From Candidatus Woesearchaeota archaeon (GTDB taxonomy: Archaea; Nanobdellota; Nanobdellia; Woesearchaeales; SKGA01), in the NCBI GenBank assembly GCA_046543005.1, contig JBKHAG010000002.1, positions 551 through 64,550 of the forward strand: DNA of 64,000 bases, given 5' to 3'. The notes beneath the pieces were generated by a model. It saw nothing but the letters and a program-made list of their open reading frames with translations, was not told the DNA's origin and searched no databases. Below are positions 2 through 64,000 of the stretch, one piece after another (position 1 is the stretch's first letter; each line of letters starts with the position of its first letter). Made by a program: the position numbers and the translations under genes.

Positions 2-568
2 CATTTTGTTGGAGATATAATGTATGACGCGGTTAAAGACTTTTCTAACACTCAAACAAACATTTTAGAAAAATATTCATTAGAAAAAGAAAAATACATA
101 TATTGCACTATTCATCGAGCACAAAATACTGATTCTAAAGAAAAACTACAAAACATCTTTGATGCATTAGTTAAAAGTGACGAGCAAATAATAATACCCC
201 TACATCCTCGAACAAGAAAAAAATTAGAAGAATTCAAATTATTTTCAAAGTATGAAAATAAAAACATTCTTTTTTTAGAACCAATAAATTATTTTGAATC
301 TTTAGAACTAACAAAAAACGCTAAAAAAATAGTTACAGACTCAGGAGGAGTTTTGCGTGAAGCATATTTCTTACAAAAAACATGCATTGTTGTAAGAGAC
401 TCAATAGAATTTGTAGAAATGATAAAAGACGAAGAAGGAATTTTAGTTGGTTCTGATAAAGAAAAGATAATTACTGCGATAAAAGAATTCAAAGCAAAAG
501 GAGAATTTAAAAATTACTTTGGAAACGCAACAACAGCAAAACAAATAGTAAAAGTGTTAAGAAGATGA
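2..568 (+). CDS. UDP-N-acetylglucosamine 2-epimerase, C-terminal part (gene runs off the window start)
   Basis: The reading frame is open from the first base of the window. HPRT and VTDSGG(V)LREA motifs match the WecB/MnaA C-terminal half. Confidence 0.65.
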   Translation, partial: HFVGDIMYDAVKDFSNTQTNILEKYSLEKEKYIYCTIHRAQNTDSKEKLQNIFDALVKSDEQIIIPLHPRTRKKLEEFKLFSKYENKNILFLEPINYFESLELTKNAKKIVTDSGGVLREAYFLQKTCIVVRDSIEFVEMIKDEEGILVGSDKEKIITAIKEFKAKGEFKNYFGNATTAKQIVKVLRR

Positions 569-3901: not shown

Positions 3902-4018
3902 TCCAATTCTTCTCATAGTTTAAACCGACTAAACTAATATTTTTCTATACAGTTTAAAGAATAATTTTTCCTATTTCTGCATAATTAGGACCATTAAATT
4001 CCCAGAATTTAAAAAAAA

Positions 4019-10892: not shown

Positions 10893-10966
10893 CTGAGTTG
10901 TTCATTTCATATCACAACCGTAGTCAAAAACACTTGGTTCTTCGTTGGTTGCTTATTTCATATCAC
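10893..10966. repeat. Direct repeat of a 17-bp unit (atttcatatcacaaccg), copies 54 bp apart; the second copy is the 3' end of nrdJ
   Basis: Seen in sequence. Both copies read GCDMK-stop on the minus strand. Confidence 0.7.
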
Positions 10967-15567: not shown

Positions 15568-15788
15568 TCCCAAAGTAAAAATATTTAAAAAACAGCTTCT
15601 TCTTTAAAAAGAATATTTTTTATAGTATAGCTTCAATGACTTTTTTGCAAGAGTAGTAATGTTGCAACGCCACACTTGTAAAAATCAGCAAATGCATGTG
15701 CCCCATAAAAGCGACAATATACTTTTGTATACCTTTAGGATGCAAGCAAAAGAACAAAACATTTAAAGAAACAAACACAAACAACTAT

Positions 15789-23652: not shown

Positions 23653-25413
23653 ATGAAACAAAAACAAAACACGCAATATCTTAAAAAAAATAAATTAACA
23701 GACAACTCATTTAATACTGCAAGGGAGAAAAAATTTTTTATTTTAGGATTGATTTTTTTATGCCTCTTACTAATTACAATGCAAACGAGTGCATGCGAGG
23801 ATAATGTTCAAACGATGCAACCATCATTTAGTACCAACAACAATACTTCTTATGAAGAAATAATATCAATAACGCCTTTATGGATTTGTGAAAAACAAAA
23901 TCTAAGTGAAGAAGAAGGATATGAAAATATAACAACTGCAGAGTTGGATTCTGATTTTTTATTTAAAGTAAAAAGAGAAAATTATAGCCAGTTAGGTGGT
24001 GAAAAAATAATTCAGTATAACATCATAGTAAATTTTACTAACACTTCAACGGCTACTCAAAATGTTTCTAAAACTATTCGCTCATACAGTAGCACAAACA
24101 CAGGAGATAAACCTTGTAAAAATTTTAGCGAAATAGAAAAAATAGTAATTAAATCAGCAAGCACACAAATAGCATGGAGCATAAACAATAACAAAAACAC
24201 AAGCACACAAGTAACTACTAACCAAACCACTAATTCATCAATAAACACAACCACCACGCCTACTTTAAATGAAAGTGAAAATACTAGCAACAACACTCTT
24301 TCAAATACAACAAACCAAACATCTACAAATACGTCCACAAATACGTCTGTAAATCAAACGAGCGACTCAACAAACGAATCAATAATAAATAACACAAATT
24401 CAAATACGCAAACAAATCAAAGCGCAGATTCACATAAAGGCATGTGTATTATTAAAACAGAAAAAAATATTTTTAAAGATGGAGAAAAAGTTTCTTTTTG
24501 GTTTGATAACCCGCATCAAACAATTGACTCTATAACGTATTGGATTGAAGATATTCAAGGAACTAATTTAAAAAAAGAATTTACAAGCGCTAACAGTAAT
24601 GAAAAGTCTTTTACTTGGAATTTAAAAAAAGAACAACAAATTGCCCATATTTACGCACGATGTTGTTTTCAAACACAAAACTGTGTTAATAATAAAAGCA
24701 TGATTGTTGCATACAAAGAAAAAATAAGCTCTGGTGAAGAAAATGAAACTGATGAAGACGAACAGAATACTTTGCAAGATCAAACAACGACAACACAAGA
24801 AGAAGAATCTAACAGCATTAGTTTTTACAAAACAGTGCTTAAAGAAAAGAACAAAGAGTTATTATTGCAAACGCAAATTCGCATTAAAAAAATCAGCGGT
24901 CGCTCGCAACTAACAACATGCGAAATTAAAACTCAAGAAAATACGTCTGCAAGTAAAGATATTATTCTTGTTGCAAAAACAAAAGGTACCTTTGAAGCGC
25001 GTTTACAAATCCCTCTTTTGAGTATGAGTAAAACATACACGCTAGGCTGTCAAGGATTAAAAACCAGCAATCAAACAACCATCATAAATGAGTATTTTAT
25101 AAATGAAACCCCTGTAAAAAAAGAAAAAACAAGCACGACAAGTAACAAACAACAAAGTCTACAATCCGAAGAAAACGACAAGAAACTAACTGCCAAGACG
25201 ACAACAAACGAAGAAAAAATCCTTGAAAAAATCACTGGCATGAGTTATGTCAATCCCGATGTAAAAAATGAAGAAAAAGTGTTTATCTATAGTGGTTTAG
25301 GAGCTATTTTAGTGCTTTTTTTGTGGTTTTTATTTAAATATGATTTGAAACGAAACAATAGTTTTATAAAACAAGTCTCATTAAAACTGAAAAGCATGCT
25401 CAAAAACAGATGA
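23653..25413 (+). CDS. Cell-surface protein: N-terminal signal/anchor, N/T/S-rich region crowded with N-x-S/T sequons, C-terminal TM anchor
   Basis: LGLIFLCLLLITMQTSA is signal-like. Dozens of NxS/T sequons (NTS, NNT, NQT, NES, NIT). C-terminal helix GLGAILVLFLWFLF followed by a basic tail. Confidence 0.6.
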   Translation: MKQKQNTQYLKKNKLTDNSFNTAREKKFFILGLIFLCLLLITMQTSACEDNVQTMQPSFSTNNNTSYEEIISITPLWICEKQNLSEEEGYENITTAELDSDFLFKVKRENYSQLGGEKIIQYNIIVNFTNTSTATQNVSKTIRSYSSTNTGDKPCKNFSEIEKIVIKSASTQIAWSINNNKNTSTQVTTNQTTNSSINTTTTPTLNESENTSNNTLSNTTNQTSTNTSTNTSVNQTSDSTNESIINNTNSNTQTNQSADSHKGMCIIKTEKNIFKDGEKVSFWFDNPHQTIDSITYWIEDIQGTNLKKEFTSANSNEKSFTWNLKKEQQIAHIYARCCFQTQNCVNNKSMIVAYKEKISSGEENETDEDEQNTLQDQTTTTQEEESNSISFYKTVLKEKNKELLLQTQIRIKKISGRSQLTTCEIKTQENTSASKDIILVAKTKGTFEARLQIPLLSMSKTYTLGCQGLKTSNQTTIINEYFINETPVKKEKTSTTSNKQQSLQSEENDKKLTAKTTTNEEKILEKITGMSYVNPDVKNEEKVFIYSGLGAILVLFLWFLFKYDLKRNNSFIKQVSLKLKSMLKNR

Positions 25414-27214: not shown

Positions 27215-29701
27215 GTGACATCCTACGAAGAAATCCCACAAAAAAAAGAAGAACCAATAGCTCAAAATATTCTTCCAGCAGTCATTGAAGATGAGATGAA
27301 AAACGCTTATTTAGATTATGCAATGAGTGTAATTATTGGGCGCGCACTTCCAGATATTAGAGATGGACTTAAACCCGTTCATCGAAGAATTCTTTATGCA
27401 ATGAATGAAATGGGGATGTTTCATAATAAACCATATAAAAAATGTGCGCGTATTGTAGGGGAAGTATTAGGTAAATACCATCCTCATGGAGATAGTGCTG
27501 TATATGATAGCCTTGTTCGTATGGCTCAAGAATTTTCTTTACGATATCCTCTTATTAGAGGTCAAGGTAACTTTGGAAGTATCGATGGCGATAGCGCAGC
27601 AGCAATGCGTTATACTGAAGCAAAACTTGAAAAAATAAGTGGAGAGCTTCTTAGCGATATTGAAAAAGAAACAGTTACGTTTACTACTAATTTTGATGGG
27701 AGTCTTAAAGAACCTGAAGTTTTACCAACCAAATTACCTCAACTTCTTTTGAATGGAACTAATGGTATTGCAGTAGGTATGGCAACAAACATTCCCCCTC
27801 ATAACATGACTGAAGTTATTTCAGGAACAATTCATCTTCTTGAAAATCCTGATTGCACCATTCAAGAACTTATTGATATTATTCCAGGTCCTGATTATCC
27901 TACAGGCGGAATAATTACAGGGCGAAGCGGTATTTTAAAGGCATATGCAACTGGTCGAGGAAAGGTTAAAGTTCGATCAGTAATTAATGAAGGTCAAAGT
28001 CGAGGAAAAGACGCACTCATAGTAAGCGAAATTCCCTACCAAGTAAATAAAGCAACACTTCTTGAAAGCATTGCAGATAATATTCGAGATAAAAAAATTG
28101 AAGGTATCAAAGATATTCGAGACGAATCAAATAGAAAAGGTATCCGAGTTATTTTTGAATTAAAAAAAGATGCAAACATTGAAGTTGTAAAAAATCAACT
28201 TTTCAAACATTCACGATTACAAACAAGTGCAGGAATTATACTTTTAGCAATAAAAGATAAGCAACCAAAAACATTTACCCTTAAAGAAATTCTTGAAAGT
28301 TTTATTGAACATCGAAAAATAGTCGTTCGTAAACGAACCGAATATGAACTTGATAAAGCGCAAAAAAAAGCTCATTTGTTAGAAGGACTAAATAAAGCAC
28401 TCGACCATATTGATGCAATTATTTCACTTATTAAAAAGGCAGAATCAGGAGTTTTAGCTAAAGAACAATTATGTAAAACGTACGAATTTTCGCAACTTCA
28501 AGCCCAAGCAATCTTAGATATGAAACTGCAAAAACTTACAGGTCTTGAACAAGACAGTATTCGAAAAGAATATGATCAAATTTTACTTAAAATCGCAGAA
28601 CTTGAAGAGTTACTTGCTAATGAAGAAAAAATAAAACAAGTTATTAAAGAAGAACTTGTAGAAATTAAAGAACAGTATGGCGATGAGCGAAAAACTCAAA
28701 TTGTTGAATGTGACTATGAAGATATTGATGACGAAGATTTAATACCTCAAGAAGATCAAGTTGTTACCATTACAAAAACAGGATATGCAAAGCGCCTTCC
28801 TATTGATACGTATCGACTTCAACGTCGAGGAGGCAAAGGAGTTATTGGTGCTCAAATGAAAGAAGAAGATTTAGTTGAACACCTATTCATTGCAAACACT
28901 CACGCACACCTCTTAATATTTACATCAAAAGGTCAAGCACACTGGTTAAAAGTTTATAAACTTCCTGAAACGTCAAGAACATCTAAAGGAAAAGCTCTTG
29001 TTAATCTTGTTTCTTTAGAAAAAGATGAAACAATTGCAGCAATTATCCCAATACAAGAATTCACTCAAGAACATAATCTTATGATATGTACAAAGCAAGG
29101 TATTGTTAAAAAAACTAATATGATGGCATATTCTCGACCTCGACAAAACGGTATTCGAGGAATTACGCTTGATGAAAATGATAGGGTTGTGTCTGTTCGA
29201 AAAACAAATGGCAAACAAGACGTTCTTATAGCTACAAGACAAGGTCAAGCAATAAAATTTAATGAACAAGACGCTCGAACCATAGGTAGAACTAGTCGTG
29301 GCGTGAGAGGAATCCGATTAGGAGCTCAAGACTATGTTGTTGACATGATTATTGCTGATCCTTCTCAAAGCGTATTAACAGTTACCCAAAACGGCTACGG
29401 AAAACGTACAAAAATGGAAGAATATCGACGTATTGGACGAGGCGGAAAAGGCGTACGAAATATTATTTGTAGTCAACGAAACGGCCCAGTCGCCGCAGTA
29501 CGTAGTGTGCAAGGACACGAACAACTCATTTTAATTTCTCAAAAAGGGATAGTTATTAGAACACCAGTAGAACAAATTAATTGTATTGGAAGAAACACCC
29601 AAGGCGTACGCTTAATGAATTTAGCAGACAGCGATTTTGTTCAAAGTGTTGCTAAAATTGCAGAAGCAGAGCAAGAAGAAAAACTAGTCCCTACAGAATA
29701 A
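27215..29701 (+). CDS. gyrA: DNA gyrase subunit A
   Basis: [33 protein letters not shown] (active-site Tyr region), GyrA-box-like C-terminal beta-pinwheel repeats, 828 aa. GTG start. Confidence 0.9.
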
Positions 29702-53068: not shown

Positions 53069-53329
53069 TTTTTATTGTTACCAATTAATTTTCGTTATTA
53101 ACCTAAAAAGAACTAGCGATTCGCCACAGAAAAAATCTATGCGTAAAGCGGTACTGAAAATGTTCTTTTCAGGCCTTCAGTATCATAATAATGTATTATG
53201 AGCAGGCGAGAGAAACCCTATCCCACTTATAAATGTTTGGTTTGTGATTGCTCTAAAAGAACTAAAACCTTAAAAAAATGATTAAAATAAATAAAAAAGC
53301 TCAAAATAATCTCTAAATGGAAAATAAAC

Positions 53330-55366
53330 TTATTTTAGGAGTTTTCTAAAAAATATCGTTTTTGATTTTGTATATGCACGAAGAGTTTTAGAATCGTAGT
53401 GCTTTTTTAGCGCAAGGTATTGTGTAAACAAGTCAGAATCAGCATTTTTTGCATGTTTAAGAGCTTGCGTGGTTTGCTTATATGCTTTTGCATGATGTGA
53501 TCCGCTCTGAACCAGTAATAACCGACAACGAACGTGTAAAGGTAAACCTTGTTTTTTAAAATCTTCATCCTCGCCTTCAAAAGTAAACTCCAAAAACTCA
53601 TCACCTATGTTTGCTTGTTGAGTAAAACCTATTTCAAGTAATGAGCTTCTTGTTTTATTTATGAATGATGATTCTATAAGAATATCAACAACATCTCTTC
53701 CCAAACAAACTAATTCATATGTCCCCACCAAAAAAGCAGATGCTTGAGTAGCCTTAATTTGTGCAGTTACCACATCAAGAATTTGTTGAGCTTTAGATTG
53801 TATAATAGTATTTTGTTTGACAAAATGAACACGTTCTTGTTTTTTTCGTTTATCAGAATCTCCTAATTCACTTTTTCGTTTTGCGTACTGAGCAGGATTT
53901 TTAATACGCGAACAAAAACTATCTGGTTGACAAATAAGAAGCGATTTGTAATAATCAGTATTTGCACAACTAGGAGGGGGAAGAATTTTTTTTTCGTGTT
54001 TAATCTGAGAAAGTTGACCTTTTAAATATTGTTCGCGTAAAGGCTCTAGATTTTGTTGATTCCAATCATACACAAAAGCAGTTATACTTTCTTTATTCCA
54101 ACCAACACAACGTAAAAAATTAATTAAAATAAAAAGTGCTCGTTTTTTACCATCCTCTAAACCATTTTGAATAATTTGAATACAAGGAGGAAAAAAATCT
54201 TTAGGTATTGCTTCTTTAGGAATATCAACTTTAGACAATATTTTTTTTGAAGCAAAATAATGATGTTCATGATCAAATGCTTCTCTAAAAAGCAATGAAG
54301 CCTCTCCTTTGCGCACTTTTGTTCGATCTAAAAAAGGAGCAGCATACCAAGAATCACATTCATTGTTTGGATGCGCATATTTTTTATCAAATGTTAAAAC
54401 AGCATCTAAAGAAATAGGGATTGAAGCCAAGCCAGATTTTTCGTGAAGAGAAAAAGGCATACGATATAAATGGCGCGAAGCAATAAGAACTGTATCAACT
54501 TCAACAACTGCAGTAATATCGATTGTTTGTTTAGGAGATTGCGACGAACCACAATGTTTACATGAAGAACTAGTTACTTGAGCATGAACAGGGTAGGAAC
54601 ATTTTTCACAACGAAAAATATCAGGAGTTCCAAAAGGTTTAGACAAGTGACCACATTGAGAACATTGATATGTTAATTTTTGTTTAGGCGTAAGTCTTTT
54701 TGCTGCACAAGAAGGACAAATTGTTTGAAATAAAGAACCACCCGTTAATTCGGCAATTTTTTCTAAATCGCTAAATGAATATTCGTAAGTAGCATCAAAA
54801 ATAACTTTTTCTTCTGATGTATCAATACTAATATAATTTCGTTGAATAAACGAAAGTAAGTAAGCAGCTATTGCTCGAGGTCCTTCAGGAAATATATGAC
54901 GAACGAGTTTTGTCTGAGTACCCACTGGCACAGTGTCAGGAAAAGCTTCAAAAGGGACTGCAATGTGAAATCCTTTATTACCTGAAAATTTAACACTAAC
55001 ACAATCTAACTTGTGATGCTTAAGTGCTTTAATAAATAAATGAGTCGTGAGTTTTGAAAGTTCCCAATCAGGACAATCTATATCTAAAATGAGATCCCAA
55101 CCTCTACGCAACTCATCTAGCTCGTGACGTTTCATTCCTGTTCGAATAGAAAGAGGATTAAACCATATTTCTTCAGAACAATGAAATGAAGAAACTTTCT
55201 TTTTTGCAAGTTCTAAAACATCATTTGAGTATGACAAAACATCAGGACGTTTGCCAAACACGTTCCCAAAAAATACAACACCTACTTCTTTATCTATTGC
55301 TTGAGCTACTAAAGCGTCTCGAATAGATTTTTTTTTATAAAAAAGTAAGGATGTGGAAATGTTCAT
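53330..55366 (-). CDS. Fused DNA primase: PriS catalytic (AEP) domain plus PriL-CTD-like Fe-S domain plus a C-terminal extension
   Basis: AEP motifs DLILDIDC, SGNKGFHIAV and EVDTVLIASRHLYRMPFSLHEKSGL. An internal Zn-ribbon, then FFPPCIQ...ARFILINFL...C...C...C typical of the PriL C-terminal 4Fe-4S domain. Confidence 0.7.
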   Translation of the reverse strand: MNISTSLLFYKKKSIRDALVAQAIDKEVGVVFFGNVFGKRPDVLSYSNDVLELAKKKVSSFHCSEEIWFNPLSIRTGMKRHELDELRRGWDLILDIDCPDWELSKLTTHLFIKALKHHKLDCVSVKFSGNKGFHIAVPFEAFPDTVPVGTQTKLVRHIFPEGPRAIAAYLLSFIQRNYISIDTSEEKVIFDATYEYSFSDLEKIAELTGGSLFQTICPSCAAKRLTPKQKLTYQCSQCGHLSKPFGTPDIFRCEKCSYPVHAQVTSSSCKHCGSSQSPKQTIDITAVVEVDTVLIASRHLYRMPFSLHEKSGLASIPISLDAVLTFDKKYAHPNNECDSWYAAPFLDRTKVRKGEASLLFREAFDHEHHYFASKKILSKVDIPKEAIPKDFFPPCIQIIQNGLEDGKKRALFILINFLRCVGWNKESITAFVYDWNQQNLEPLREQYLKGQLSQIKHEKKILPPPSCANTDYYKSLLICQPDSFCSRIKNPAQYAKRKSELGDSDKRKKQERVHFVKQNTIIQSKAQQILDVVTAQIKATQASAFLVGTYELVCLGRDVVDILIESSFINKTRSSLLEIGFTQQANIGDEFLEFTFEGEDEDFKKQGLPLHVRCRLLLVQSGSHHAKAYKQTTQALKHAKNADSDLFTQYLALKKHYDSKTLRAYTKSKTIFFRKLLK

Positions 55367-55429
55367 AAAAGTAAGTAAGCCCTTATTAGATAAAAAGGTT
55401 TGTAAAATAATATAAGAAAAAAAGAAAAA

Positions 55430-56836
55430 TTATTTTTTTGAAAAAAATGCTTTGTAACAAAGATATGCTTCATACACGTCAGCTTTTGAAACAATTTCAT
55501 AAGGTGAGTGCATCCCTAACATGCAAGGACCAACATCCACACAAGACATTCCATAACGCGAAAAATATTGTGCAATGGTTCCACCACCGCCTAAATCTAT
55601 TCGTCCATTTTCTCCTGTTTGCCAATAAACATTGTTATCATTTAAAAGTTGGCGAATGGTATGCATGTATTCTGCACTAGCATCGTTAGTAGAATATTTT
55701 CCTCCGCCACCACCATATTTTTCAAGACTAACGCCATAACCAAGTCGTGATACGTTTGTTGCGTCTTGAGCATCTTTATAATTAGGATTAAGACCTGAAG
55801 TTACATCTGCACTTAATGAAGATGCTTGACCTAAAAATAAATCAACAGATAAAGATGAACCTACTGAAGCCAAATAGCGTTGTGCAAATTGTCTTAAAAT
55901 GTATGATTGTGCTCCTGTATCACCAGCACTTCCGGTTTCTTCTTTATCTATAAATAATGCAACCGCTGTTGAGGAAGGATTTTTTGTATGAAGTAATGCT
56001 TGTAAAGAAGTGTACACACAAACACCATCATCATGACCGTAGGCTGCAAGTAACGATTTATCAAAACCAACATCTCGAGGTTGAGATTGAGGAACAAAAG
56101 AAAGTTCTGCGCTTACAAAATCCTCTTCTACAAAACCATACTCTTTGTTGAGTTTTTGCAAAACAGATACTTTGAGTTTCTCTTTTAAATTATCATCTTT
56201 AACAGGGATACTACCAACTAATGCCATGAGTTGTTCGCCTGCAATAAATTGAGAAACTTTTTTATCATACTGTTCTCGGGCCAGATGAGGAAGCAAGTCA
56301 GGTATGACAAAAACAGGTTCATCATCTTTTTCACCAATAGAAAGAAAAATTTTCTTTCCTGATTTAGTATAAACCACTCCGTGTAAACTAAGAGGAGTGT
56401 TTACCCAATGATACTTTTTTATACCACCATAATAATGGGTTTTGAATACTGCTAAAGAACTCTCTTCAACTAAAGGAAGAGGTTTAAGATCTAAGCGAGG
56501 TGAATCAGTATGACTTCCAATAAGAGCCATGTGTTCTTTATTTTTACCAACAACCCAAGCCAACACAACTTTTTCTTTATATACTATAAAAAGTTTATCA
56601 CCAGACTTTGTTTTTTGATTGGTAAATTTTACAAAATTATTTTTTTTCAATTCAAAAACCACATAATCTACAGTAAGTCGTTCTGTTTTAGCAAAAGACA
56701 AGAACTGTTTGTACCCTTCATTAAAATCAAATATTTTTTTATGATAATTCTTCGTTGTTTTTTCCCACACAGATTTTTTTTCAAACTGAAGAGAAGAATA
56801 TTTTTTTGAGGATTTTTTTTCTGACATAACTATCAA
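55430..56836 (-). CDS. M18-family aminopeptidase (aspartyl aminopeptidase-like)
   Basis: IGSHTDSPRLDLKP motif, 468 aa. Confidence 0.75.
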   Translation of the reverse strand: MIVMSEKKSSKKYSSLQFEKKSVWEKTTKNYHKKIFDFNEGYKQFLSFAKTERLTVDYVVFELKKNNFVKFTNQKTKSGDKLFIVYKEKVVLAWVVGKNKEHMALIGSHTDSPRLDLKPLPLVEESSLAVFKTHYYGGIKKYHWVNTPLSLHGVVYTKSGKKIFLSIGEKDDEPVFVIPDLLPHLAREQYDKKVSQFIAGEQLMALVGSIPVKDDNLKEKLKVSVLQKLNKEYGFVEEDFVSAELSFVPQSQPRDVGFDKSLLAAYGHDDGVCVYTSLQALLHTKNPSSTAVALFIDKEETGSAGDTGAQSYILRQFAQRYLASVGSSLSVDLFLGQASSLSADVTSGLNPNYKDAQDATNVSRLGYGVSLEKYGGGGGKYSTNDASAEYMHTIRQLLNDNNVYWQTGENGRIDLGGGGTIAQYFSRYGMSCVDVGPCMLGMHSPYEIVSKADVYEAYLCYKAFFSKK

Positions 56837-57110
56837 CCGTTAACTATTCAAAAGATTTTTCTTTAAATAGTTGTTGGTTTAGAAACGCTGTCTTAAGAAG
56901 ATAATTTTTTATATTGTCTTGTGGCTTTCTTTTTGAAGAAGATAAAAAGAATATTTGTATTCGCGCCTATAATCGCTGATTCAAAAATAGTCAACAGGTG
57001 CCAAAGGCGCTAATTAAGTTGGGCAATATACCTCTTTATTCTATTTGAAACAGAGCTACTTTAGAGCATGTTAAAAAAAAACTAACAATAATAATGACTC
57101 AAATATATTT

Positions 57111-59429
57111 TTAATTGCCTTTTTTTAGTGTATCTTTAGATTCTTTATATGATAATTTTCTTAGACGAACAATTTCTTGGGCTTTTTTAGGACCAATAAG
57201 GTCTATAGATTGTAAATCTTTTTCGCTAGCAAGTAAAAAGGATTCTAAAGTGTCATATCTTTGCAGAATTTTTTGTGCTAACAAACCACCAATTGTTGGA
57301 AAACTACTCACAACGTATTCTAATAATTCTTTATCTGTTAAAGGTTTTGCAGTATGATAGGTAAAGACTTGCGAAGAATCAGATTGCTCTCGTGAAGCAA
57401 TAGTTGTTAATAATTTTGCGGTTTCTCGAGGTGAAGAAGTGTATAACAAAGGAATACCATAAGAAACAGTTATTGTTGAAAGCATACCTAAAACTGCAGA
57501 TTCACTTACTCTACGTAAAGATTGTTCTCGCCAATCACCTTGAATAATTACTAAAGGTTTTTTATACTGAACAAGTGCTAAGAGCTGAGAAAGTAATCTC
57601 CCATTTGCAATACTATCTATAAAATCACTTGCTTGTTTGAACTCAACACAACAATCTGCGCTAAGTAAAAAATCACCCACTCCTAGTTGTTTAAGTTCTA
57701 AAGATATATTTTCTCGATGTAGTTGTTTTAATACAAGAGATCCTTTTTCTCTAAAATCAACAATAATTTTTGGTTGTGATAAAGTATTTTTTTCAAGTTT
57801 TTCTTCAGAATTTGACTCTTTTTTTTTAGAAGATAACATTTTTTTTGCTGAAGAAAATTGAGTTAAATTTTTTTGAGAAGTGCCAGCAAAGGATTTTGAA
57901 AATTCTTCTAAAACCGAATACATTCTTTTTTCTTTGTGAAAAGCCACCCAACGATTTGTTTCATCACGAGTATTTTTTGTAACAAGAACACAAACTGATC
58001 CTTGTGAATGTCTTCCCGTTCTTCCTCTTCTTTGAACACTTCGTATTGCGCTAGGAATGGGTTCAAAAAAAAATACGTGATCAACACTAGGTATATCAAG
58101 ACCTTCTTCAGCAACACTTGTTGCAATTAGACAAGAAAAAAGTCCAGCTCTAAAATCATCTAAAATTTTTTTTTGCGTTTTTTGAGAATGTCCAACGCCT
58201 TTCTTTTTTGCTTGGCCAAAAAACAGTTTACAACTAATAATTTTAGAAAGTTGCGATTGAATAAATGAAGCAGAATCTCTAAATTGGGCAAAAATAATTA
58301 TTTTTGCTTGAGGATCTTTATGTAAAATTAAAGCAACTTTATCAAAGAGTTTTTGAACTTTAGGGTGTTCTTCATTATTTTTGACACACTCGCGAGTAAT
58401 TGCAAGCGCGCCCAACACTAAAGGATCTTTAACAAGATATTGCACAGCTTTTACTTTGGTAGTTCGAGATTGTTCTAAAAGCCCATACAAATATTGGTGA
58501 AGAGCATGAATTGTTTGTGTTTGAGCAAGTTCTTGGGCGTGAAGAAGTTTAAGCACTTGAGCTATTAAACTCATTGCAGCATATACTTGTGAGGATGATT
58601 CATCCCTGCTAATTCGAGAATGAAGCATGCCCTGTAATTGTAAAAGAGATGTTTTTGAAAACGAACGAAGTAAGCGTGGTGATTGTAAGGATGCATTAAT
58701 TTCATGCAGGCGTTTATCGATTGCTTGTTGTAAATATGTATCTATTTTTGTAAGCTGTGAAGATAAAGGTAATTGTTCCCAATTAATTATTGTTTCTTGG
58801 CGAAATTTACGAATATCAGGGTCAGTGGGTTTTTTATATTCAACAACTTGCGCGCCTATATTTTGAATAACTTCTTCTATTTTTTCTTTGTTAGCGCCAG
58901 GTGACGCGCTTAAACCAAGCGTTAAAGGATGTTGTGACTTTTCAAAATACTGTTGTGCTAAAAAAACGTAAGCGTAATCACCTACCGCTCGATGAACTTC
59001 ATCAAGAATTAACAAGGAAACGTCACCTAAAGATATATTATTACCCAACACATCATTTTCAACTGTTTGTGGCGTCGAAAAAATTATTCGTGCGTCAAGC
59101 CATTTTTTGTGACGCCTTTTTGGGGCTACAGTTCCAGTAAATAATGCGTACTGAGAATCATTTAAAGGAATGTGTTTTTTAAACGATTCAAATTGTTGTT
59201 CGGCTAAAGGTTTTGTAGGTGTTAAAAAAAGTATTTTTGAATCAGGATACATCATTAAGCGATGAACTGCAAGCATCATCGCAATTGCTGTTTTACCAAG
59301 ACCAGTGGGTAAAACCACTAAAGAATTATCTTTTTTTATTTTATCAAAAATGTCTATTTGATATGGTCGAGGAGTAAAATCAATAAGCATAACAAGAGAA
59401 AAAACGAAATTGTTTATAAGTTTGTGCAA
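57111..59429 (-). CDS. hef: Hef-type helicase-nuclease (SF2 helicase fused to an ERCC4/XPF nuclease and HhH2)
   Basis: PRPYQIDIF...LPTGLGKT, DEVHR, a GRTGRH-like motif, ERCC4 domain VDFRE...GDF..S...VE.K, and a C-terminal HhH pair. Confidence 0.85.
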   Translation of the reverse strand: MHKLINNFVFSLVMLIDFTPRPYQIDIFDKIKKDNSLVVLPTGLGKTAIAMMLAVHRLMMYPDSKILFLTPTKPLAEQQFESFKKHIPLNDSQYALFTGTVAPKRRHKKWLDARIIFSTPQTVENDVLGNNISLGDVSLLILDEVHRAVGDYAYVFLAQQYFEKSQHPLTLGLSASPGANKEKIEEVIQNIGAQVVEYKKPTDPDIRKFRQETIINWEQLPLSSQLTKIDTYLQQAIDKRLHEINASLQSPRLLRSFSKTSLLQLQGMLHSRISRDESSSQVYAAMSLIAQVLKLLHAQELAQTQTIHALHQYLYGLLEQSRTTKVKAVQYLVKDPLVLGALAITRECVKNNEEHPKVQKLFDKVALILHKDPQAKIIIFAQFRDSASFIQSQLSKIISCKLFFGQAKKKGVGHSQKTQKKILDDFRAGLFSCLIATSVAEEGLDIPSVDHVFFFEPIPSAIRSVQRRGRTGRHSQGSVCVLVTKNTRDETNRWVAFHKEKRMYSVLEEFSKSFAGTSQKNLTQFSSAKKMLSSKKKESNSEEKLEKNTLSQPKIIVDFREKGSLVLKQLHRENISLELKQLGVGDFLLSADCCVEFKQASDFIDSIANGRLLSQLLALVQYKKPLVIIQGDWREQSLRRVSESAVLGMLSTITVSYGIPLLYTSSPRETAKLLTTIASREQSDSSQVFTYHTAKPLTDKELLEYVVSSFPTIGGLLAQKILQRYDTLESFLLASEKDLQSIDLIGPKKAQEIVRLRKLSYKESKDTLKKGN

Positions 59430-59533
59430 GAGTTGACCAGTGTTATGATCTCATAGCTAAACAAAAAATAAAAGTTAATAAGAAAATACAAAAAAGCAGA
59501 AAATAAAAGAATTCTTGCTACATACTACTATAC

Positions 59534-59941
59534 TCATAATTTAGTATGTAAAGCATATTTTGCGCCACATGCTTGACAACTTAAAAAATATACGCCAGTA
59601 TCTTTTGAAAGCTTAGTATCTGGTTTTCCACATTCTTTGCAAATAACAAATTGGTCTGCAAATTGTTGTATTCGAACATTAATTTTTGAAGCAGACAATT
59701 TAGAATTAAAAATAACAAAATTTCCTTCAATAAGACCTTTTGTTGCGAGTTGTTTTTCAATAAATTTTACTAGCAATTGTTGTGGACGACGAAGAGTTGT
59801 TGCGATTTGGGAAATATTACTAATAATGGTTTTATTTCCTTGAATATGGCCTTTTACCTTAGGAATTTCAAATCGTTGAGATTTTTCAACATCCTCAGGT
59901 AATTCATTTCTTGCTTTTTGCAATAATTTTTCGTAATCCAT
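59534..59941 (-). CDS. Translation initiation factor 2 subunit beta (aIF2-beta)
   Basis: MDYEKLLQKARNELP..., C4 zinc ribbon CKECGKPDT...CQACGAK. Start taken at the internal Met; the upstream in-frame part looks like 5' leader. Confidence 0.8.
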   Translation of the reverse strand: MDYEKLLQKARNELPEDVEKSQRFEIPKVKGHIQGNKTIISNISQIATTLRRPQQLLVKFIEKQLATKGLIEGNFVIFNSKLSASKINVRIQQFADQFVICKECGKPDTKLSKDTGVYFLSCQACGAKYALHTKL

Positions 59942-60125
59942 TATATCAACTCGCTTAGGTTCAATAACATCAAAAACGCCTTGACGTATCATCAGAGCAA
60001 GTGCCGATTGTTTGCAGGCGCTCGCTTGCAACTAAACCGCTGTGAAAATCGTCGCGTGTAACAAAAAAGTTACAAACCAGTGAAATGAAGAAACAAAGTG
60101 GAGTTTTTAAAGCTTGCTTAAATAG

Positions 60126-60712
60126 TTATTGATTAAAATAGCCTTCTTGTTCTAAATAAAAAAGCAGTTCTTCAAAAATTTTTTGTAGCTGAGGGAATTC
60201 TTGAAAATATTTTGCTTTTTTTAAACGTAAAAAATCTGCAGACCACTCCTTCCAATCTTTTTTATAATCCACTTCATGAAGTTGAGAATCTAACACATCT
60301 ATTGCTTTTGCAAAGCGAGCTTCTTTAGAAGAAAGCGTTTCAAATTCTTTTTGTAAACGTACATATTTTTCTTTCATGAAAACAGGAATTTTTTCTGAAA
60401 TTATTTGTATTGCTTTTTCTTCTTTTTCTTTTTTATGAAGATGTTTAATGTTTGGGTGTAATGCAAAATCACCCGATTCTATTTCATGAACATCGTGATA
60501 CATAAGTAATTCATAAATTTTTAATCGATCTAAATTAATATCTAATAAAGATAAAAAATAGTCTGCTAAAATAAGACAACTCCACGTATGCTCAGCAGTA
60601 CTTTCTTTTCGAGAATCAACAGAACTTAAGCGATAAATAGATTTAAGCTTATAGAGGTATTTTAATGAAAAAATATTTTGTAACGTGTTTTTTCTTCTTG
60701 ACTATTTACCAT
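60126..60712 (-). pseudogene. HD-domain phosphohydrolase (YfbR-like 5'-deoxynucleotidase) with its 5' region out of frame because of a 1-nt indel in a T6 run
   Basis: ESTAEHTW...LMYHDVHEIESGDF (H..HD..E..GD) continues upstream of the annotated ATG with no in-frame start. A clean start MVNSQEEKTRYKIFF lies in the -1 frame and joins at the homopolymer near 60668-60673. Confidence 0.5.
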
Positions 60713-60727
60713 TTTTACTACACCTTC

Positions 60728-63700
60728 TTATATAAAATCTCCAAGACCTGCTTGTTTTTCTTTTTCAATACCAAAGACGTCCGTTATTCGATGTTTTGTT
60801 AAGTACAAAGATTCTTTAAGATAATCGCTTACATTAAATTCTTCTGCAAGAGTAATACTCATTTCTAAATATTTCATAATACTACCTTCAGAAATTGTAA
60901 AAATTATTTTACCACCACAAGTAGTGCATTTACCACTTAAAGGCGGACGACGATATTTTTCATTACAACCCACGCAACGAAATTGTTGAAGCGAAAACTT
61001 TCTCAAATTACCTTTGGTGTCTCTAATAAAATGTTTTTCAATAACAAGGCGAGCAACATCGCTTTGATTAACTGCTCTTATTTTTTTTGCTAAATCCATT
61101 TGGCGTTCAATTTTTTCAGGCATGGAAGGCAATGTTTTATACGCCGAACATAAAATTCCTTCGTTAATATTGCTCACAGGATGAGTAAACATCATTCCTT
61201 CAAATTGTTTTTGAGTAAATAAATTATCATCAATACGTTCAATTTTTACGTCCCAAGGTTTTTTGTATGCGTTGCAAGCTTCATAAAAATCTAAAGGGTA
61301 CGATGAAACAGTATCAACATTAAAAGCCATATCATCAACTTCTGCAGGATTAAGAAGTGTTGTTAATACTAAAGGTGCGTCCATTGTTGAACCACGACTT
61401 CTTCCTAAAAATTTTTGTGAAAAATTCAAAAAGGCATCTAATTGTAAAAAAAAGCAACTCTCATCACCATCACAATCTCTACGCATTGCAGCGTGAAATA
61501 ATGGATGAGCAAGCATACCTTGAGTTTGAGAAAAACCAATAATTCTACCAACAGATCCTGCTGACGTGTGAGGCGCAAGACCTATAATTAAATGACCAAT
61601 CAAATCTTCTTGAGTTTTTACATTATAAAAAGCAGGCAGATCATATAATTTTTCAAGTTCTTCATCAACAAATTGTGTTGCCCTAATTAAAACATCTGCA
61701 CTTCCTTCTTCAGGAGAATCAGGACATTGAGGTAATACTAAATCTTGAGAACGAAGTTCTAAAACTTGATCGTCTTTTGTTAAAGGACTACCATATACAT
61801 CGTGAGTATAACCTAACTCCACAAGTTTTTTTACAGGCGCGCCTATTTCAAAAGGTTTGAAATGAGTAAGAGTAAGTTCACTTGCATCGTAACGTATAGT
61901 GCCATCTTTATTTACATGAACTCCGTGTTTTGCTCGAAGTATTGCTTTTAGTAAATGTTCTGTTGAGTGATCTTTTCCAACAGTTCCACGAACACCTTTA
62001 ATTAAGTCAGGATAAATTTTAGTATTCATTTTTTTAAGACAATACTCAAAAAGGGATCGTATAGGAACAGACCATTCTTTGTAATCCATAAAATCAGGAT
62101 CATCATTTTCAACTGCTTGACTAGAAACTGTTTCCTTTGTTTTTCTATTAATTTTTTGTCGGATGGTTTTTGTTTCACACATTTCACAAATACGAAGAGG
62201 TGTTTTGTTTTGACAATTGGGACATTCAAACACTGGAAAATTACTCGTTACTTTACCTTTTTCAAGGGCTGATTGAAAACTTCTAAGACGTCCTCCTTCT
62301 TCTCCAACAGGAAATAAACCGTGAGGGCTGCCCGTGAGTTTTCTCATCTTTGCTTTTTCTGGACGACCCATTCGAGCACCAATAAAAATACCGCTTTTAT
62401 CACGGATAGGAACAGGAGATAATTCATTAATAATATCTAAAACAAAAGCGTTTTTTTTATCAAAAGAATTAAAAACTTCCAAAGCATCTTTTGCATCAAA
62501 TTGTGAACGAATATTAAGTGTGTATGATAAAGCTAAAGCTTCATCTCCTGTTATTTCAACACGGTTTTCATCAACTGTATGAGCAACTCCTAAGAGTTCT
62601 AAAGCTCTTTTTGCTTTGTTGAATTCTTCACTTAAAGGAAAAACTATTTTTGGTGTTTCAAGCATATAATTTGCATTTGCAAACCAAAATAATAAATCTT
62701 TTAATTGATCAAAGGTTATTTCGTTATAGTAAAAAATGTGCTGGGGATGTAAGGCAACATTAAGAATAGAAGATATTTTTTTTGCCGAAGAAAAGGACAC
62801 CTTAGTAGTTAAGGGTTTTACTAAAAGAGAGCTTACAAAATCTTGGGGAAGATCTAAAACTTGAGCAAAAGATGCTTTATCTTTTGTTTTTTCATGTAGT
62901 GCTTTTTTTACATAATGAATCCAAATTTCTTCAACAAAACCCGGAGGAATAAGTGTTGCTGCCCTATCAAAAAAATCACCATAATTAATTAATACATCAC
63001 CAACATAAATTATTTCTTCAATAGCATTATTTATTTCACTACCTTGTTGGGCGGTTCGTACTTTAATTACTGAACCATTTTTTAATTTAACAATAGGACC
63101 ATCAATAGAATCACAAGGAGTAAACGCTGCTGCTTTACCGGGACGTTCTACTTTGAGTTGAGTTCCTATAGCAATTAAATCATTAAGAACGCTTGTGGTT
63201 GCAGGATGAATACTTTGACCTGAATATCCTGAGGCTCTACTTCGTCCATAGCGAAGTCTAAAACCTCCGCTTTTCATAGGATGACCTATGACTGGACGCC
63301 CACCAACTAAATCTTTAACAAAAGTAGGATCGGGTTTTACATGTGAATGAACATCATATGCTTTATGCAGTTCGCTTTGATTTATATCAACAGCCACTTC
63401 TTCAGAAGAATCTTTTGAATCACCATCTTTTGCAAACTTAGCTTTAAGTTCTTTTTGAAACGTGACGTGTTCACCTAAAAAATCCCAATCATGCATTCCA
63501 AAATCATGACCCCACTCTTTAAGCTTCTTCCACAATTTTGGTGACTTTAAAGGAATACAAGAAGAATGAATAAGACAATATCCGCTTCGCAAAAAATTAG
63601 TTTCTACCCTTGGCAAATCTTTTAATCCTGCGTTTGATAATTCTCTTTTTTCACTGGCATCACCAGCAATTTCAACAGGAATATTTTTGAGTAAAAATTC

Positions 63701-64000
63701 ACTCTCTTCTTTGTAAGGAAAATATTGTAAATTAGCAACATATTGATGATAATCTTCAAGTTCGGCAAAACAACGTTTTATTTCTTTTTCATCAGGGTCA
63801 TATTTAGCATAACCCATTTGTTTTCGAACATAATCTGCAATTAAAACACTCGTTGCAGCAGCTGTTCCTCCAGCATTTCGAATAGGACCTGCATAATTAA
63901 GTCGAAAAAATTTTCCCTTACCATCGCGACGTTCTATAAGTTCAATACTTGTAAGCCCTTCTAAAGGAGAAGATACCACTCCCACTGTTACATATGCAAA
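60728..64000 (-). CDS. DNA polymerase II (PolD) large subunit DP2, C-terminal ~1085 aa (N-terminus lies beyond the window end)
   Basis: Conserved DP2 blocks and a C-terminal zinc-finger CVGCNEKY...CTTCGGK. The ORF is open to the window edge. Confidence 0.9.
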   Translation of the reverse strand, partial: FAYVTVGVVSSPLEGLTSIELIERRDGKGKFFRLNYAGPIRNAGGTAAATSVLIADYVRKQMGYAKYDPDEKEIKRCFAELEDYHQYVANLQYFPYKEESEFLLKNIPVEIAGDASEKRELSNAGLKDLPRVETNFLRSGYCLIHSSCIPLKSPKLWKKLKEWGHDFGMHDWDFLGEHVTFQKELKAKFAKDGDSKDSSEEVAVDINQSELHKAYDVHSHVKPDPTFVKDLVGGRPVIGHPMKSGGFRLRYGRSRASGYSGQSIHPATTSVLNDLIAIGTQLKVERPGKAAAFTPCDSIDGPIVKLKNGSVIKVRTAQQGSEINNAIEEIIYVGDVLINYGDFFDRAATLIPPGFVEEIWIHYVKKALHEKTKDKASFAQVLDLPQDFVSSLLVKPLTTKVSFSSAKKISSILNVALHPQHIFYYNEITFDQLKDLLFWFANANYMLETPKIVFPLSEEFNKAKRALELLGVAHTVDENRVEITGDEALALSYTLNIRSQFDAKDALEVFNSFDKKNAFVLDIINELSPVPIRDKSGIFIGARMGRPEKAKMRKLTGSPHGLFPVGEEGGRLRSFQSALEKGKVTSNFPVFECPNCQNKTPLRICEMCETKTIRQKINRKTKETVSSQAVENDDPDFMDYKEWSVPIRSLFEYCLKKMNTKIYPDLIKGVRGTVGKDHSTEHLLKAILRAKHGVHVNKDGTIRYDASELTLTHFKPFEIGAPVKKLVELGYTHDVYGSPLTKDDQVLELRSQDLVLPQCPDSPEEGSADVLIRATQFVDEELEKLYDLPAFYNVKTQEDLIGHLIIGLAPHTSAGSVGRIIGFSQTQGMLAHPLFHAAMRRDCDGDESCFFLQLDAFLNFSQKFLGRSRGSTMDAPLVLTTLLNPAEVDDMAFNVDTVSSYPLDFYEACNAYKKPWDVKIERIDDNLFTQKQFEGMMFTHPVSNINEGILCSAYKTLPSMPEKIERQMDLAKKIRAVNQSDVARLVIEKHFIRDTKGNLRKFSLQQFRCVGCNEKYRRPPLSGKCTTCGGKIIFTISEGSIMKYLEMSITLAEEFNVSDYLKESLYLTKHRITDVFGIEKEKQAGLGDFI

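What the first reader, a model, noticed from the sequence alone, without database searches (positions are those of the whole stretch)
53330..55366. Single-polypeptide primase fusing the PriS catalytic domain, a PriL-type Fe-S C-terminal domain and an additional ~200-aa C-terminal extension
The 678-aa protein has all three AEP motifs (DLILDIDC; SGNKGFHIAV; EVDTVLIASRHLYRMPFSLHEKSGL) and an embedded zinc ribbon. Then follows a region with the PriL-CTD hallmarks (FFPPCIQ..., ALFILINFL, three further Cys in PPPSCANTDYYKSLLICQPDSFC). In most archaea PriS and PriL are separate genes. A fused PriS-PriL has been described for Nanoarchaeota, which supports a DPANN affiliation. Here there is an additional uncharacterised C-terminal segment (...LVGTYELVCLGRDVV...HVRCRLLLVQSGSHHAKAY...), so the protein is larger than a minimal fusion.
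Basis: partly seen in the sequence, partly recalled or inferred. Interest (0 to 1): 0.6.

Follow-up and report, generated by a model that had tools for sequence, protein, structure and literature searches.

The report
DPANN fused primase with GrpB tail
This gene encodes the already known single-chain DNA primase of tiny DPANN archaea, with a rare extra C-terminal domain: a nucleotidyltransferase-like (GrpB) module that has lost its predicted metal-binding residues yet is still conserved, so it probably serves as a non-enzymatic helper domain.

Summary
Window 53330-55366 (minus strand) is a 678-aa ORF with AEP motifs I-III, eight conserved Cys forming two zinc ribbons, a PriL-type C-terminal domain with four conserved Fe-S cysteines, and about 175 extra C-terminal residues.

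The PriS-PriL fusion itself is not new. It is the characterised primase type of Nanoarchaeum (NEQ395) and a reported synapomorphy of Undinarchaeota plus DPANN cluster 2. Thousands of 500-550-aa homologues exist in Woesearchaeota/Nanoarchaeota.

The added value is the tail. After a Lys-rich disordered linker (505-519), residues 520-678 form a GrpB-family (PF04229), Pol-beta-type nucleotidyltransferase fold (pLDDT 94). Only four other proteins share this architecture. In all five the third predicted metal ligand is replaced (R/Q/Q/T/K), and four have also lost the first acidic residue. The tail is nevertheless under purifying selection (dN/dS about 0.17), so I read it as a retained non-catalytic accessory domain.

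A sister clade carries a NUDIX domain with a degenerate Nudix box at the same junction, acquired independently. All forms sit at the same chromosomal locus (Hef - peptidase - primase - L3 operon).

Verdict: a new variant of a known kind, of moderate interest. The tail's function is inferred, not shown.

The parts
53330..55366 (-). Complete CDS, 678 aa: fused PriS - PriL-CTD - GrpB-like primase
   Evidence: ORF list; 3733 homologues, P0001 76% identical over 100% of the length; full-length AlphaFold model pLDDT 87, pTM 0.62
54332..55366 (-). PriS (AEP catalytic) domain, aa 1-345. Motif I DLILDIDC (aa 91-98; window 55073-55096), motif II SGNKGFHIAV (aa 128-137; 54956-54985), motif III EVDTVLIASRH (aa 289-299; 54470-54502)
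   Evidence: PF01896 aa 98-319, E=3.5e-5, 24.7 bits vs cutoff 26.8. PF01896 is precomputed for most homologues. D95, D97, H134 and D291 are invariant in 70 sequences. Foldseek hits to Pri1, PriS and Prim-PolC at probability 1.00
54521..54730 (-). Double zinc-ribbon insert within PriS, aa 213-282 (four CxxC pairs: C217/220, C235/238, C253/256, C269/272)
   Evidence: Cys positions. All eight Cys invariant or at least 90% conserved. Weak Zn_ribbon_8, L37ae and TFS4 matches. Short beta-hairpins in the model
54215..54331 (-). Inter-domain connector, aa 346-384, including helix 357-371 and a low-confidence stretch around aa 371-380
   Evidence: Secondary structure and pLDDT of the full model. NEQ395 has an analogous long linking helix whose length tunes primer length (PMC10250227)
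53855..54214 (-). PriL C-terminal ([4Fe-4S]-type) domain, aa 385-504, with ligand candidates C395, C467, C479, C485
   Evidence: PF04104 at 25.5 bits vs cutoff 22.4 for aa 350-505 alone, and 19/19 homologues match. Profile hit to P. abyssi PriL 9f26_B, E=1.2e-8, aligned at the Cys motifs. NCBIfam PriL models match aa 374-512 weakly. Cys spacing matches NEQ395
53810..53854 (-). Lys/Arg-rich flexible linker, aa 505-519 (DKRKKQERVHFVKQN)
   Evidence: pLDDT 54-55 for residue blocks 501-520, below 50 at 505-509. Highest dN/dS of any segment, 0.40. Tail-less homologues end in a comparable Lys-rich tail
53333..53809 (-). GrpB-like Pol-beta-type nucleotidyltransferase-fold domain, aa 520-678. Key residues: G548-T549, V559 (first acidic position), D561, R615 (third ligand position), L617, K654, Y665, K669, F672-F673. 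The stop codon is at 53330-53332
   Evidence: PF04229 at aa 557-678, 20.4-21.6 bits vs cutoff 25.5. Orthologous tails score 26.4 (P0001) and 43.6 (P0004). Profile A3 hits PDB 2NRK GrpB at E=9e-20. Tail model pLDDT 93.9, pTM 0.88. Foldseek matches Cid1 and Pol beta/lambda/mu at probability 1.00. Catalytic-column table. dN/dS 0.17 vs P0001

Best explanation
The gene encodes the cell's replicative primase, in the single-chain form typical of DPANN cluster 2 archaea. SHOWN: an AEP catalytic PriS domain carrying a double zinc ribbon is joined by a helical connector to a PriL C-terminal domain with four conserved cysteines. INFERRED by analogy with N. equitans NEQ395: the cysteines hold a [4Fe-4S] cluster, PriS makes the primer, the tethered PriL-CTD supplies the initiation site, and the connector length sets primer length. 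SHOWN: in this lineage a third module is attached through a disordered, Lys-rich linker of about 15 residues, namely a GrpB-family domain with the Pol-beta nucleotidyltransferase fold. It keeps the G[ST] loop, one Asp (D561) and the conserved C-terminal K..Y...K..FF helix. It has V in place of the first acidic residue and R615 in place of the third metal ligand. INFERRED: because the domain is nevertheless under purifying selection, it most likely acts as a non-catalytic accessory module. The preferred role is a nucleotide- or nucleic-acid-binding or regulatory appendage held close to the PriL-CTD initiation site. A stabilising or partner-docking role is the fallback.
For: Architecture and homology. 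Structure.

Resident chromosomal primase: the same neighbourhood (PolD DP2 / aIF2-beta / Hef / peptidase / primase / L3-L4-L23 operon) is found in the window, in the GrpB-tailed P0004 and P0001 loci, in tail-less P0008 and, without DP2 and aIF2-beta, in NUDIX-tailed P0026. No second primase-like ORF is in the window.

Mechanism of the core: NEQ395 biochemistry, PMC10250227.

Degenerate active site: among 42 free relatives, the first acidic position is E/D in 38, the second is D in 42, and the third position is E/D/H in 39. The five fused tails have V,V,C,N,E / D,D,D,D,D / R,Q,Q,T,K.

Retention: 17 invariant tail columns, K654, Y665, K669 and F672 conserved as in free GrpB, dN/dS 0.17, confident fold.

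Precedents: the UPF0157/GrpB domain appended to M. tuberculosis CoaE was assigned a folding role rather than a catalytic one (PMC2765170). GrpB is fused to many nucleotide- or phosphate-handling enzymes.

Parallel case: a sister primase clade carries a NUDIX tail with a degenerate Nudix box at the same junction.
Against: No GrpB protein has an experimentally defined activity or active site that I could find. Calling the site 'degenerate' therefore rests on the general Pol-beta nucleotidyltransferase rule, which is established knowledge rather than something tested here. Canonical GrpB proteins such as 2NRK also lack the first acidic residue (IID) and use His at the third site, so only the loss of the third ligand is strongly diagnostic. 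P0004 keeps E-x-D. The query's own tail scores below the Pfam cutoff. dS is close to saturation (1.8), which makes dN/dS approximate. No ligand, partner or contact with the primase core was demonstrated, and model coordinates could not be inspected. Only five sequences carry this architecture.
Confidence: 0.62

Rival explanations
1. The tail is still an active nucleotidyltransferase using a non-canonical ligand set. It might add untemplated nucleotides to primers, or adenylylate or uridylylate a small molecule or protein, so the protein would be a bifunctional primase-transferase.
For: The fold is that of Cid1 and Pol beta/lambda/mu. G548, D561 and the K/Y/K helix are conserved. P0004 keeps the E-x-D pair. 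Canonical GrpB also lacks the first acidic residue. The domain is under purifying selection.
Against: The third ligand position, E/D/H in 39 of 42 free relatives, is R/Q/Q/T/K in all five fused tails, and the following His is L/I/F/I/Y. No compensating acidic residue is conserved across the five: the upstream D in the query is Q, P or K in the others, and the E after the motif is Q in two of them.
Confidence: 0.12
2. The tail binds no ligand. It would be purely a folding or solubility aid, or a docking surface for another replisome protein, compensating for the missing PriL N-terminal domain in a reduced DPANN replisome.
For: There is a UPF0157 precedent in mycobacterial CoaE (PMC2765170). The fused primases lack the PriL-NTD, since PF04104 matches only profile positions 93-218. 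A structurally unrelated NUDIX domain occupies the same position in a sister clade, which argues that exact chemistry matters less than having a domain there. Most relatives manage without any tail.
Against: The residues best conserved between fused and free GrpB domains are G, D, K, Y, K and F, which look like ligand-contacting residues rather than a hydrophobic core. That pattern is not expected for a pure scaffold. No partner is known.
Confidence: 0.22
3. The extension is an artefact: a misassembly, a frameshift or read-through joining the primase to a neighbouring GrpB gene.
For: Only a few sequences carry it. One database entry (P0123) is a fragment identical to the C-terminal 321 aa.
Against: The same uninterrupted architecture occurs in five distinct sequences (24-61% tail identity) from independent sources, namely an NCBI MAG, Logan runs and JGI. 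Tail-less relatives have no separate GrpB gene or remnant downstream. The junction is the same in all five. The tail shows purifying selection in frame.
Confidence: 0.02
4. It is a primase of a plasmid, virus or integrated element rather than the host's replicative enzyme.
For: Monomeric AEP-helix-bundle primases are typical of mobile elements (PMC10250227). The C-terminal domains are variable.
Against: The protein lies in a conserved core-gene neighbourhood shared with relatives, and composition is uniform around the gene. It clusters with the cellular DPANN fused primases.
Confidence: 0.02

Closest known systems
NEQ395, the monomeric PriS-PriL primase of Nanoarchaeum equitans (NAR 2023, PMC10250227), and the fused primases of Undinarchaeota and DPANN cluster 2 (PMC7414124)
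   Same: A single chain with PriS followed by a helical connector and the PriL C-terminal Fe-S domain. There are four Cys with nearly the same spacing and no PriL N-terminal domain. It is the chromosomal, presumably sole, primase of a DPANN archaeon.
   Different: This protein is much longer. It has a double zinc ribbon inside PriS and, above all, an extra C-terminal GrpB-like domain after the PriL-CTD. I found no mention of such a domain in that paper (no match for 'C-terminal extension' or 'Nudix'). I did not align the query to NEQ395 directly.
GrpB / UPF0157 family (PF04229; PDB 2NRK; C-terminal domain of mycobacterial dephospho-CoA kinase CoaE, PDB 6N39)
   Same: The sequence family is the same and so is the Pol-beta-type nucleotidyltransferase fold. 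The G[ST] loop, the Asp and the C-terminal K..Y...K..FF helix are conserved. As in CoaE, the domain is appended C-terminally to another enzyme.
   Different: The third metal-ligand position and the following His are replaced in all primase-fused copies, and the first acidic residue is replaced in four of five. The query's own score is below the Pfam cutoff. The partner, a replicative primase, is new among the partners seen here (NUDIX, His phosphatase, cytidylate-kinase-like, APH kinase, PIG-L, GT4, YunG).
Free GrpB-NUDIX two-domain proteins (P0121, P0122, P0141)
   Same: They are among the closest free relatives of the primase tail: the only two hits of the word-indexed profile search, with 34% identity and E=8e-17 to P0004's tail.
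   Different: They keep E-x-D, the third Asp and His, and a perfect Nudix box. They have no primase. Their Nudix half is not the source of the NUDIX tails seen on sister primases.
Heterodimeric or heterotrimeric archaeal and eukaryotic primases (PriS/PriL, PriS/PriL/PriX, Pri1/Pri2)
   Same: The catalytic motifs, the PriS fold and the PriL-CTD Fe-S motif are shared.
   Different: In those enzymes the subunits are separate genes, PriL has an N-terminal scaffold domain, and none carries a nucleotidyltransferase-fold appendage. PriX, an extra nucleotide-binding helper subunit in Sulfolobus, is a functional analogy only, not a homologue.

Membership tests
AEP small-subunit primase (PriS, PF01896) | Catalytic motifs I (DxD), II (SxH) and III (hD) | tested here: met
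   D95/D97, S128...H134 and D291 are present and invariant in 70 homologues
AEP small-subunit primase (PriS, PF01896) | Profile score at or above the Pfam gathering cutoff | tested here: inconclusive
   The query scores 24.7 bits against 26.8 (E=3.5e-5). PF01896 is on record for most close homologues. The family profile finds no PriS in the PDB by sequence.
AEP small-subunit primase (PriS, PF01896) | PriS/Pri1 fold | tested here: met
   Foldseek probability 1.00 to human Pri1, P. furiosus primase 1G71, P. abyssi PriS and Prim-PolC
PriL C-terminal Fe-S domain (PF04104) | Profile score at or above the cutoff over the CTD part of the model | tested here: met
   aa 350-505 alone scores 25.5 bits against 22.4, over profile positions 93-217. 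19 of 19 family members match, best E=6e-11. The sub-profile hits 9f26_B PriL at E=1.2e-8.
PriL C-terminal Fe-S domain (PF04104) | Four conserved cysteines able to bind a [4Fe-4S] cluster | tested here: met
   C395, C467, C479 and C485 are conserved and align to the PriL Cys motifs. The spacing matches NEQ395's C289, C364, C376 and C384. Actual cluster binding cannot be tested with these tools.
Canonical PriL (full length) | N-terminal helical domain that docks onto PriS | tested here: not met
   PF04104 and NCBIfam PriL models match only their C-terminal parts. This is as expected for the DPANN fused type, so the protein is a PriL-CTD carrier and not a full PriL.
DPANN fused PriS-PriL primase (NEQ395 type) | Single chain with PriS, a connector helix and PriL-CTD, in a DPANN cluster 2 genome | tested here: met
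   Model domain order; thousands of collinear homologues named Woesearchaeota or Nanoarchaeota; literature
DPANN fused PriS-PriL primase (NEQ395 type) | No separate priS or priL in the genome | tested here: inconclusive
   The 64-kb window has no second PriS or PriL-CTD ORF. The rest of the genome is not available.
GrpB family (PF04229) | Profile score at or above the cutoff | tested here: inconclusive
   The query tail scores 20.4-21.6 bits against 25.5. The orthologous tails of P0001 (26.4) and P0004 (43.6) pass. The combined profile hits 2NRK at E=9e-20, but that profile is dominated by free relatives.
GrpB family (PF04229) | Pol-beta-type nucleotidyltransferase fold with a C-terminal helical part | tested here: met
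Pol-beta nucleotidyltransferase superfamily (active enzymes) | hG[GS] loop, [DE]h[DE]h pair and a third carboxylate | tested here: not met
   G548-T549, V559-V-D561 and R615. This concerns catalytic competence, not homology.
NUDIX hydrolases (sister-clade tails only) | Nudix box Gx5Ex7REUxEExGU | tested here: not met
   PF00293 passes its cutoff for 3 of the 5 tails. The box is degenerate in all five, while it is perfect in free P0121, P0122 and P0141. The window protein has no NUDIX domain.

The most novel reading that the evidence does not exclude
The C-terminus of the DPANN single-chain primase may be a recurrent docking point for captured nucleotide-binding enzyme folds (GrpB here, NUDIX in a sister clade). 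These would have been converted into sensor or pseudo-enzyme domains that couple primer initiation to the state of the nucleotide pool, for example NTP/dNTP level or damaged nucleotides, or that bind the primer end. That would be an allosterically regulated replicative primase with no described counterpart.
Probability: 0.2. Interest if true: 0.65.

Novelty: new variant of a known kind. Interest (0 to 1): 0.4.

Why it matters
The core finding, a fused PriS-PriL primase, is textbook for DPANN archaea and adds nothing new on its own. The appended domain is the interesting part. Replicative primases are highly conserved machines, and an added nucleotidyltransferase-fold domain that lacks its predicted metal ligands yet is kept by selection would be a natural experiment in how primase initiation can be modulated. 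A sister clade has made a parallel, independent addition of a degenerate NUDIX domain at the same junction. If the tails bind nucleotides or primer ends, they would play a role comparable to PriX or the PriL N-terminal domain in other lineages, and they would give biochemists working on NEQ395-type enzymes a simple deletion or swap experiment. The finding also corrects a database label: NCBI names one orthologue simply 'GrpB family protein', which hides the organism's primase.

Tried and rejected
1. Sequence searches of the whole protein, and of the five-tail profile, against the PDB found only zinc-ribbon noise or nothing. The GrpB link needed the broader profile A3.

2. I tested whether the primase once captured a GrpB-NUDIX gene whole and then lost one half or the other. 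This is not supported. The NUDIX tails' nearest free relatives are stand-alone IDI-like Nudix proteins (P0204, P0205), and their similarity to P0121's Nudix half is insignificant (21%, E=0.035).

3. I looked for remnants of a GrpB domain downstream of tail-less primases, which would indicate loss. None turned up in L003 or in 11 reference-genome loci. Whether P0004's tail reflects ancestry or a second gain stays open. The NJ tree places P0004 among tail-less proteins, but that tree is distance-based and has no support values.

4. dN/dS against P0004 is saturated and uninformative.

5. The reference-genome scan found only 19 relatives, none with a GrpB tail, so the source organism could not be named below Woesearchaeota/Nanoarchaeia.

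7. Literature searches for GrpB with nucleotidyltransferase or with primase found nothing relevant.

8. There are no tRNA genes or Rfam families in the window that would help with taxonomy.
Full report
OBSERVATION. Window 53330..55366 holds, on the minus strand, an ATG-initiated ORF of 678 aa. The 'embedded zinc ribbon' is in fact four CxxC pairs between aa 217 and 272, which makes two ribbons. The gene sits in an archaeal core-gene neighbourhood: PolD large subunit DP2, an HD-domain protein, aIF2-beta, Hef helicase/nuclease, an M18 aminopeptidase, the primase, and then the L3-L4-L23 ribosomal operon. GC content is about 0.33-0.37 around the gene, in line with the window apart from its first 4 kb.

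THE PRIMASE CORE. Pfam gives PriS (PF01896, aa 98-319, 24.7 bits against a cutoff of 26.8) and PriL (PF04104, aa 375-489, 21.7 against 22.4). NCBIfam PriL models match aa 374-512 weakly. The homology search returned 3733 proteins, typically 500-550 aa. Most carry PF01896 and/or PF04104 on record, and those that are named are Woesearchaeota, Nanoarchaeota or Nanobdellota. In a 70-sequence alignment D95, D97, H134, D291, R298 and H299 are invariant. The eight zinc-ribbon cysteines and C395, C467, C479 and C485 are invariant or at least 90% conserved.

Region 350-505 scanned alone passes the PF04104 cutoff (25.5 bits), and 19 of 19 family members match. Its profile aligns to P. abyssi PriL (9f26_B, E=1.2e-8) exactly at the FPPC and PPNC..C..C..NP motifs. 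The full-length AlphaFold model (pLDDT 87) matches human Pri1, P. furiosus and P. abyssi PriS, and Prim-PolC. The cysteine spacing of 72/12/6 mirrors the experimentally mutated Fe-S cysteines of N. equitans NEQ395, whose spacing is 75/12/8 (PMC10250227).

The fusion has been characterised biochemically in NEQ395. It is also described as a synapomorphy of Undinarchaeota plus DPANN cluster 2 (PMC7414124). No second PriS, PriL-CTD or GrpB-like ORF exists in the 64-kb window. The rest of the genome cannot be examined.

THE EXTENSION. Typical homologues stop 20-60 residues after the NPxxY motif, in a Lys-rich tail. This protein continues for 184 residues. Only P0001-P0004 cover the query end to end. 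Pfam matches aa 557-678 to GrpB (PF04229) at 20.4-21.6 bits, below the 25.5 cutoff. The orthologous tails of P0001 (26.4) and P0004 (43.6, E=4.5e-11) pass it, and NCBI has named P0004 'GrpB family protein'.

An exhaustive profile search of 1.84 billion representatives found only two proteins at E<=1e-30 and 82 at E<=1e-3. One of the two is a fragment of the query itself. Most of the rest are 150-180-aa stand-alone proteins. The ten fusion proteins I scanned include eight that pass the GrpB cutoff. A profile of the tails plus these relatives hits PDB 2NRK ('hypothetical protein GrpB', E=9e-20) and the C-terminal domain of a mycobacterial dephospho-CoA kinase (6N39).

The tail folds confidently (pLDDT 93.9, pTM 0.88). 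Foldseek places it in the Pol-beta nucleotidyltransferase fold (Cid1, Pol beta, lambda and mu; probability 1.00; TM(query) 0.41-0.54). In the full-length model it is separated from the PriL-CTD by a disordered Lys/Arg-rich linker at aa 505-519.

IS THE TAIL AN ENZYME? I aligned the five fused tails with 42 free relatives.
- Free proteins: G[SA] in 41 of 42; an acidic residue two positions before an invariant Asp in 38 of 42; E, D or H on a later strand in 39 of 42; often a His two residues further on (22 of 42).
- Fused tails: G, then T/T/A/S/S. First acidic position V/V/C/N/E. Asp retained in all five. Third position R/Q/Q/T/K, followed by L/I/F/I/Y.
- In the query these residues are G548, T549, V559, D561, R615 and L617.

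By the general rule for Pol-beta-type transferases (established knowledge, not tested here), a site with one carboxylate and a basic residue where a metal ligand should be is unlikely to catalyse nucleotidyl transfer. One caveat applies. Canonical GrpB proteins such as 2NRK also lack the first acidic residue and use His at the third site, and no GrpB activity is known. The strongest argument is therefore the uniform loss of the third ligand.

The domain is not decaying. K654, Y665, K669 and F672 are conserved as in free GrpB proteins, and 17 columns are invariant among the five tails. Between the query and P0001 the tail has dN/dS of about 0.17 (pN/pS 0.37), against 0.16 for PriS and 0.06 for PriL-CTD. 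Synonymous sites are near saturation, so these values are approximate.

COMPARATIVE CONTEXT. Five other primases of about 670 aa in the first search (P0026, P0027, P0030, P0040, P0041) carry a NUDIX domain (PF00293) at the same junction. Three GTDB reference genomes carry such NUDIX-tailed primases; two of them encode proteins identical (L008 = P0030) or nearly identical (L009 vs P0026) to members of this group. Their Nudix box has lost the REUxEE glutamates in every case, while free relatives keep a perfect box.

In a neighbour-joining tree of the cores the NUDIX-tailed proteins form one clade. The query, P0001, P0002 and P0003 form another. P0004 sits among tail-less proteins in the sister group (distance tree, no support values). 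All three forms occupy the same Hef - peptidase - primase - L3 locus. Tail-less relatives have neither a neighbouring GrpB gene nor a remnant downstream.

The only two hits of the word-indexed profile search with the GrpB tails were GrpB-NUDIX two-domain proteins (P0121, P0122). P0121 is 34% identical to P0004's tail (E=8e-17). That suggested a single capture of a GrpB-NUDIX gene. The NUDIX tails' closest free relatives, however, are stand-alone IDI-like Nudix proteins, and they do not resemble P0121's Nudix half significantly. I therefore treat the two tails as independent additions. GrpB domains are fused to many partners: NUDIX, histidine phosphatase, cytidylate-kinase-like P-loop, APH kinases, PIG-L, GT4 and YunG. 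In M. tuberculosis CoaE the appended UPF0157/GrpB domain was assigned a role in folding rather than catalysis (PMC2765170).

MECHANISM.
- Shown: domain order, conserved motifs, folds, chromosomal context, loss of the predicted metal ligands, and purifying selection on the tail.
- Inferred from NEQ395 biochemistry: PriS synthesises the primer, the tethered PriL-CTD supplies the initiating-nucleotide and template site, and connector length tunes primer length.
- Inferred, at moderate confidence: the GrpB-like tail is a non-catalytic accessory domain on a flexible leash next to the PriL-CTD. It most likely binds a nucleotide or nucleic acid, or regulates the enzyme.
- Rivals: a pure folding or docking module (0.22), a still-active transferase (0.12), an assembly artefact (0.02), or a mobile-element primase (0.02).

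NOVELTY AND VERDICT. The fused primase is already known. The GrpB-tailed architecture appears in one automatically named database entry, and I found no description of it in the searchable literature. It is rare: five sequences. I rate it a new variant of a known kind, with interest 0.4. The most novel reading not excluded is that the primase C-terminus recurrently recruits captured nucleotide-binding folds as sensor domains that regulate priming (probability about 0.2).

Noticed in passing
P0026, P0027, P0030, P0040, P0041; loci L005 8001-10013, L007, L008, L009: A sister clade of fused primases (~670 aa) carries a C-terminal NUDIX domain in place of GrpB. Its Nudix box is degenerate (the REUxEE glutamates are lost). 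The nearest free relatives are stand-alone IDI-like Nudix proteins (P0204, P0205).
   Followed up: yes
L021 3001-5790: A Nanoarchaeota fused primase ORF of 930 aa is interrupted by an intein (Intein_splicing plus LAGLIDADG, aa ~147-561) inside the PriS part.
   Followed up: partly
window 53537-53590 (aa 593-610 of the primase): The query and P0001 alone have an acidic insertion (FEGEDEDFKKQGLPL) in a loop of the GrpB-like domain. Model confidence is lower there (pLDDT 83-87 in the tail-only model). Its role is unknown.
   Followed up: no
window 1-4000: This stretch is very AT-rich (GC 0.22-0.25, AT skew about +0.29) compared with ~0.33 elsewhere. It encodes a UDP-GlcNAc 2-epimerase fragment, two GT4 glycosyltransferases and an HPr-kinase-like ORF, followed by a polysaccharide flippase at 5653-7197. 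It is probably a surface-glycan island, possibly acquired horizontally.
   Followed up: partly
window 10953-13295 and 13491-15383: Two adjacent ribonucleotide reductase large-subunit ORFs (780 and 630 aa) lie on the same strand. The second matches the barrel domain in two stretches. This could be a duplication or an interrupted gene.
   Followed up: no
window 15696-17369: A complete GH3-family (acyl-adenylate-forming, plant auxin-conjugating type) protein is encoded in a DPANN archaeon.
   Followed up: no
window 23653-25413: A 586-aa ORF has no Pfam match at E<=1e-3.
   Followed up: no
window 27215-29701: A DNA gyrase A subunit (828 aa, bacterial type) is present in this archaeal genome.
   Followed up: no
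window 53069-63985; L001, L003, L005, L025, L026: The replication/repair and translation genes form a gene block ending in the primase next to the L3 operon. Hef, a peptidase (M18 or M3), the primase and L3 occur in that order in every locus read. DP2 and aIF2-beta lie upstream in most of them, with varying order and orientation, and in L005 MCM and TBP lie upstream instead. This recalls the replication-translation gene linkage reported for Archaea (PMC2643942; seen only as a title and abstract).
   Followed up: partly
P0125, P0128, P0139, P0140, P0154, P0187, P0188, P0194: GrpB domains closely related to the tail are fused to very different enzymes: histidine phosphatase, cytidylate-kinase-like P-loop, YunG, APH-type kinases, PIG-L deacetylase, GH26-like and GT4 glycosyltransferase. 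GrpB looks like a promiscuous companion of nucleotide- and phosphate-handling enzymes, and its own activity is unknown.
   Followed up: partly
P0004 (NCBI GCA_034722215.1, JAYENS010000022.1; locus L001 10001-11986): The public annotation names this orthologue only 'GrpB family protein', which hides the fact that it is the organism's primase. P0043, a homologue of this archaeal primase, is filed under a bacterial 'Simkania sp.' MAG, which probably reflects binning contamination.
   Followed up: no
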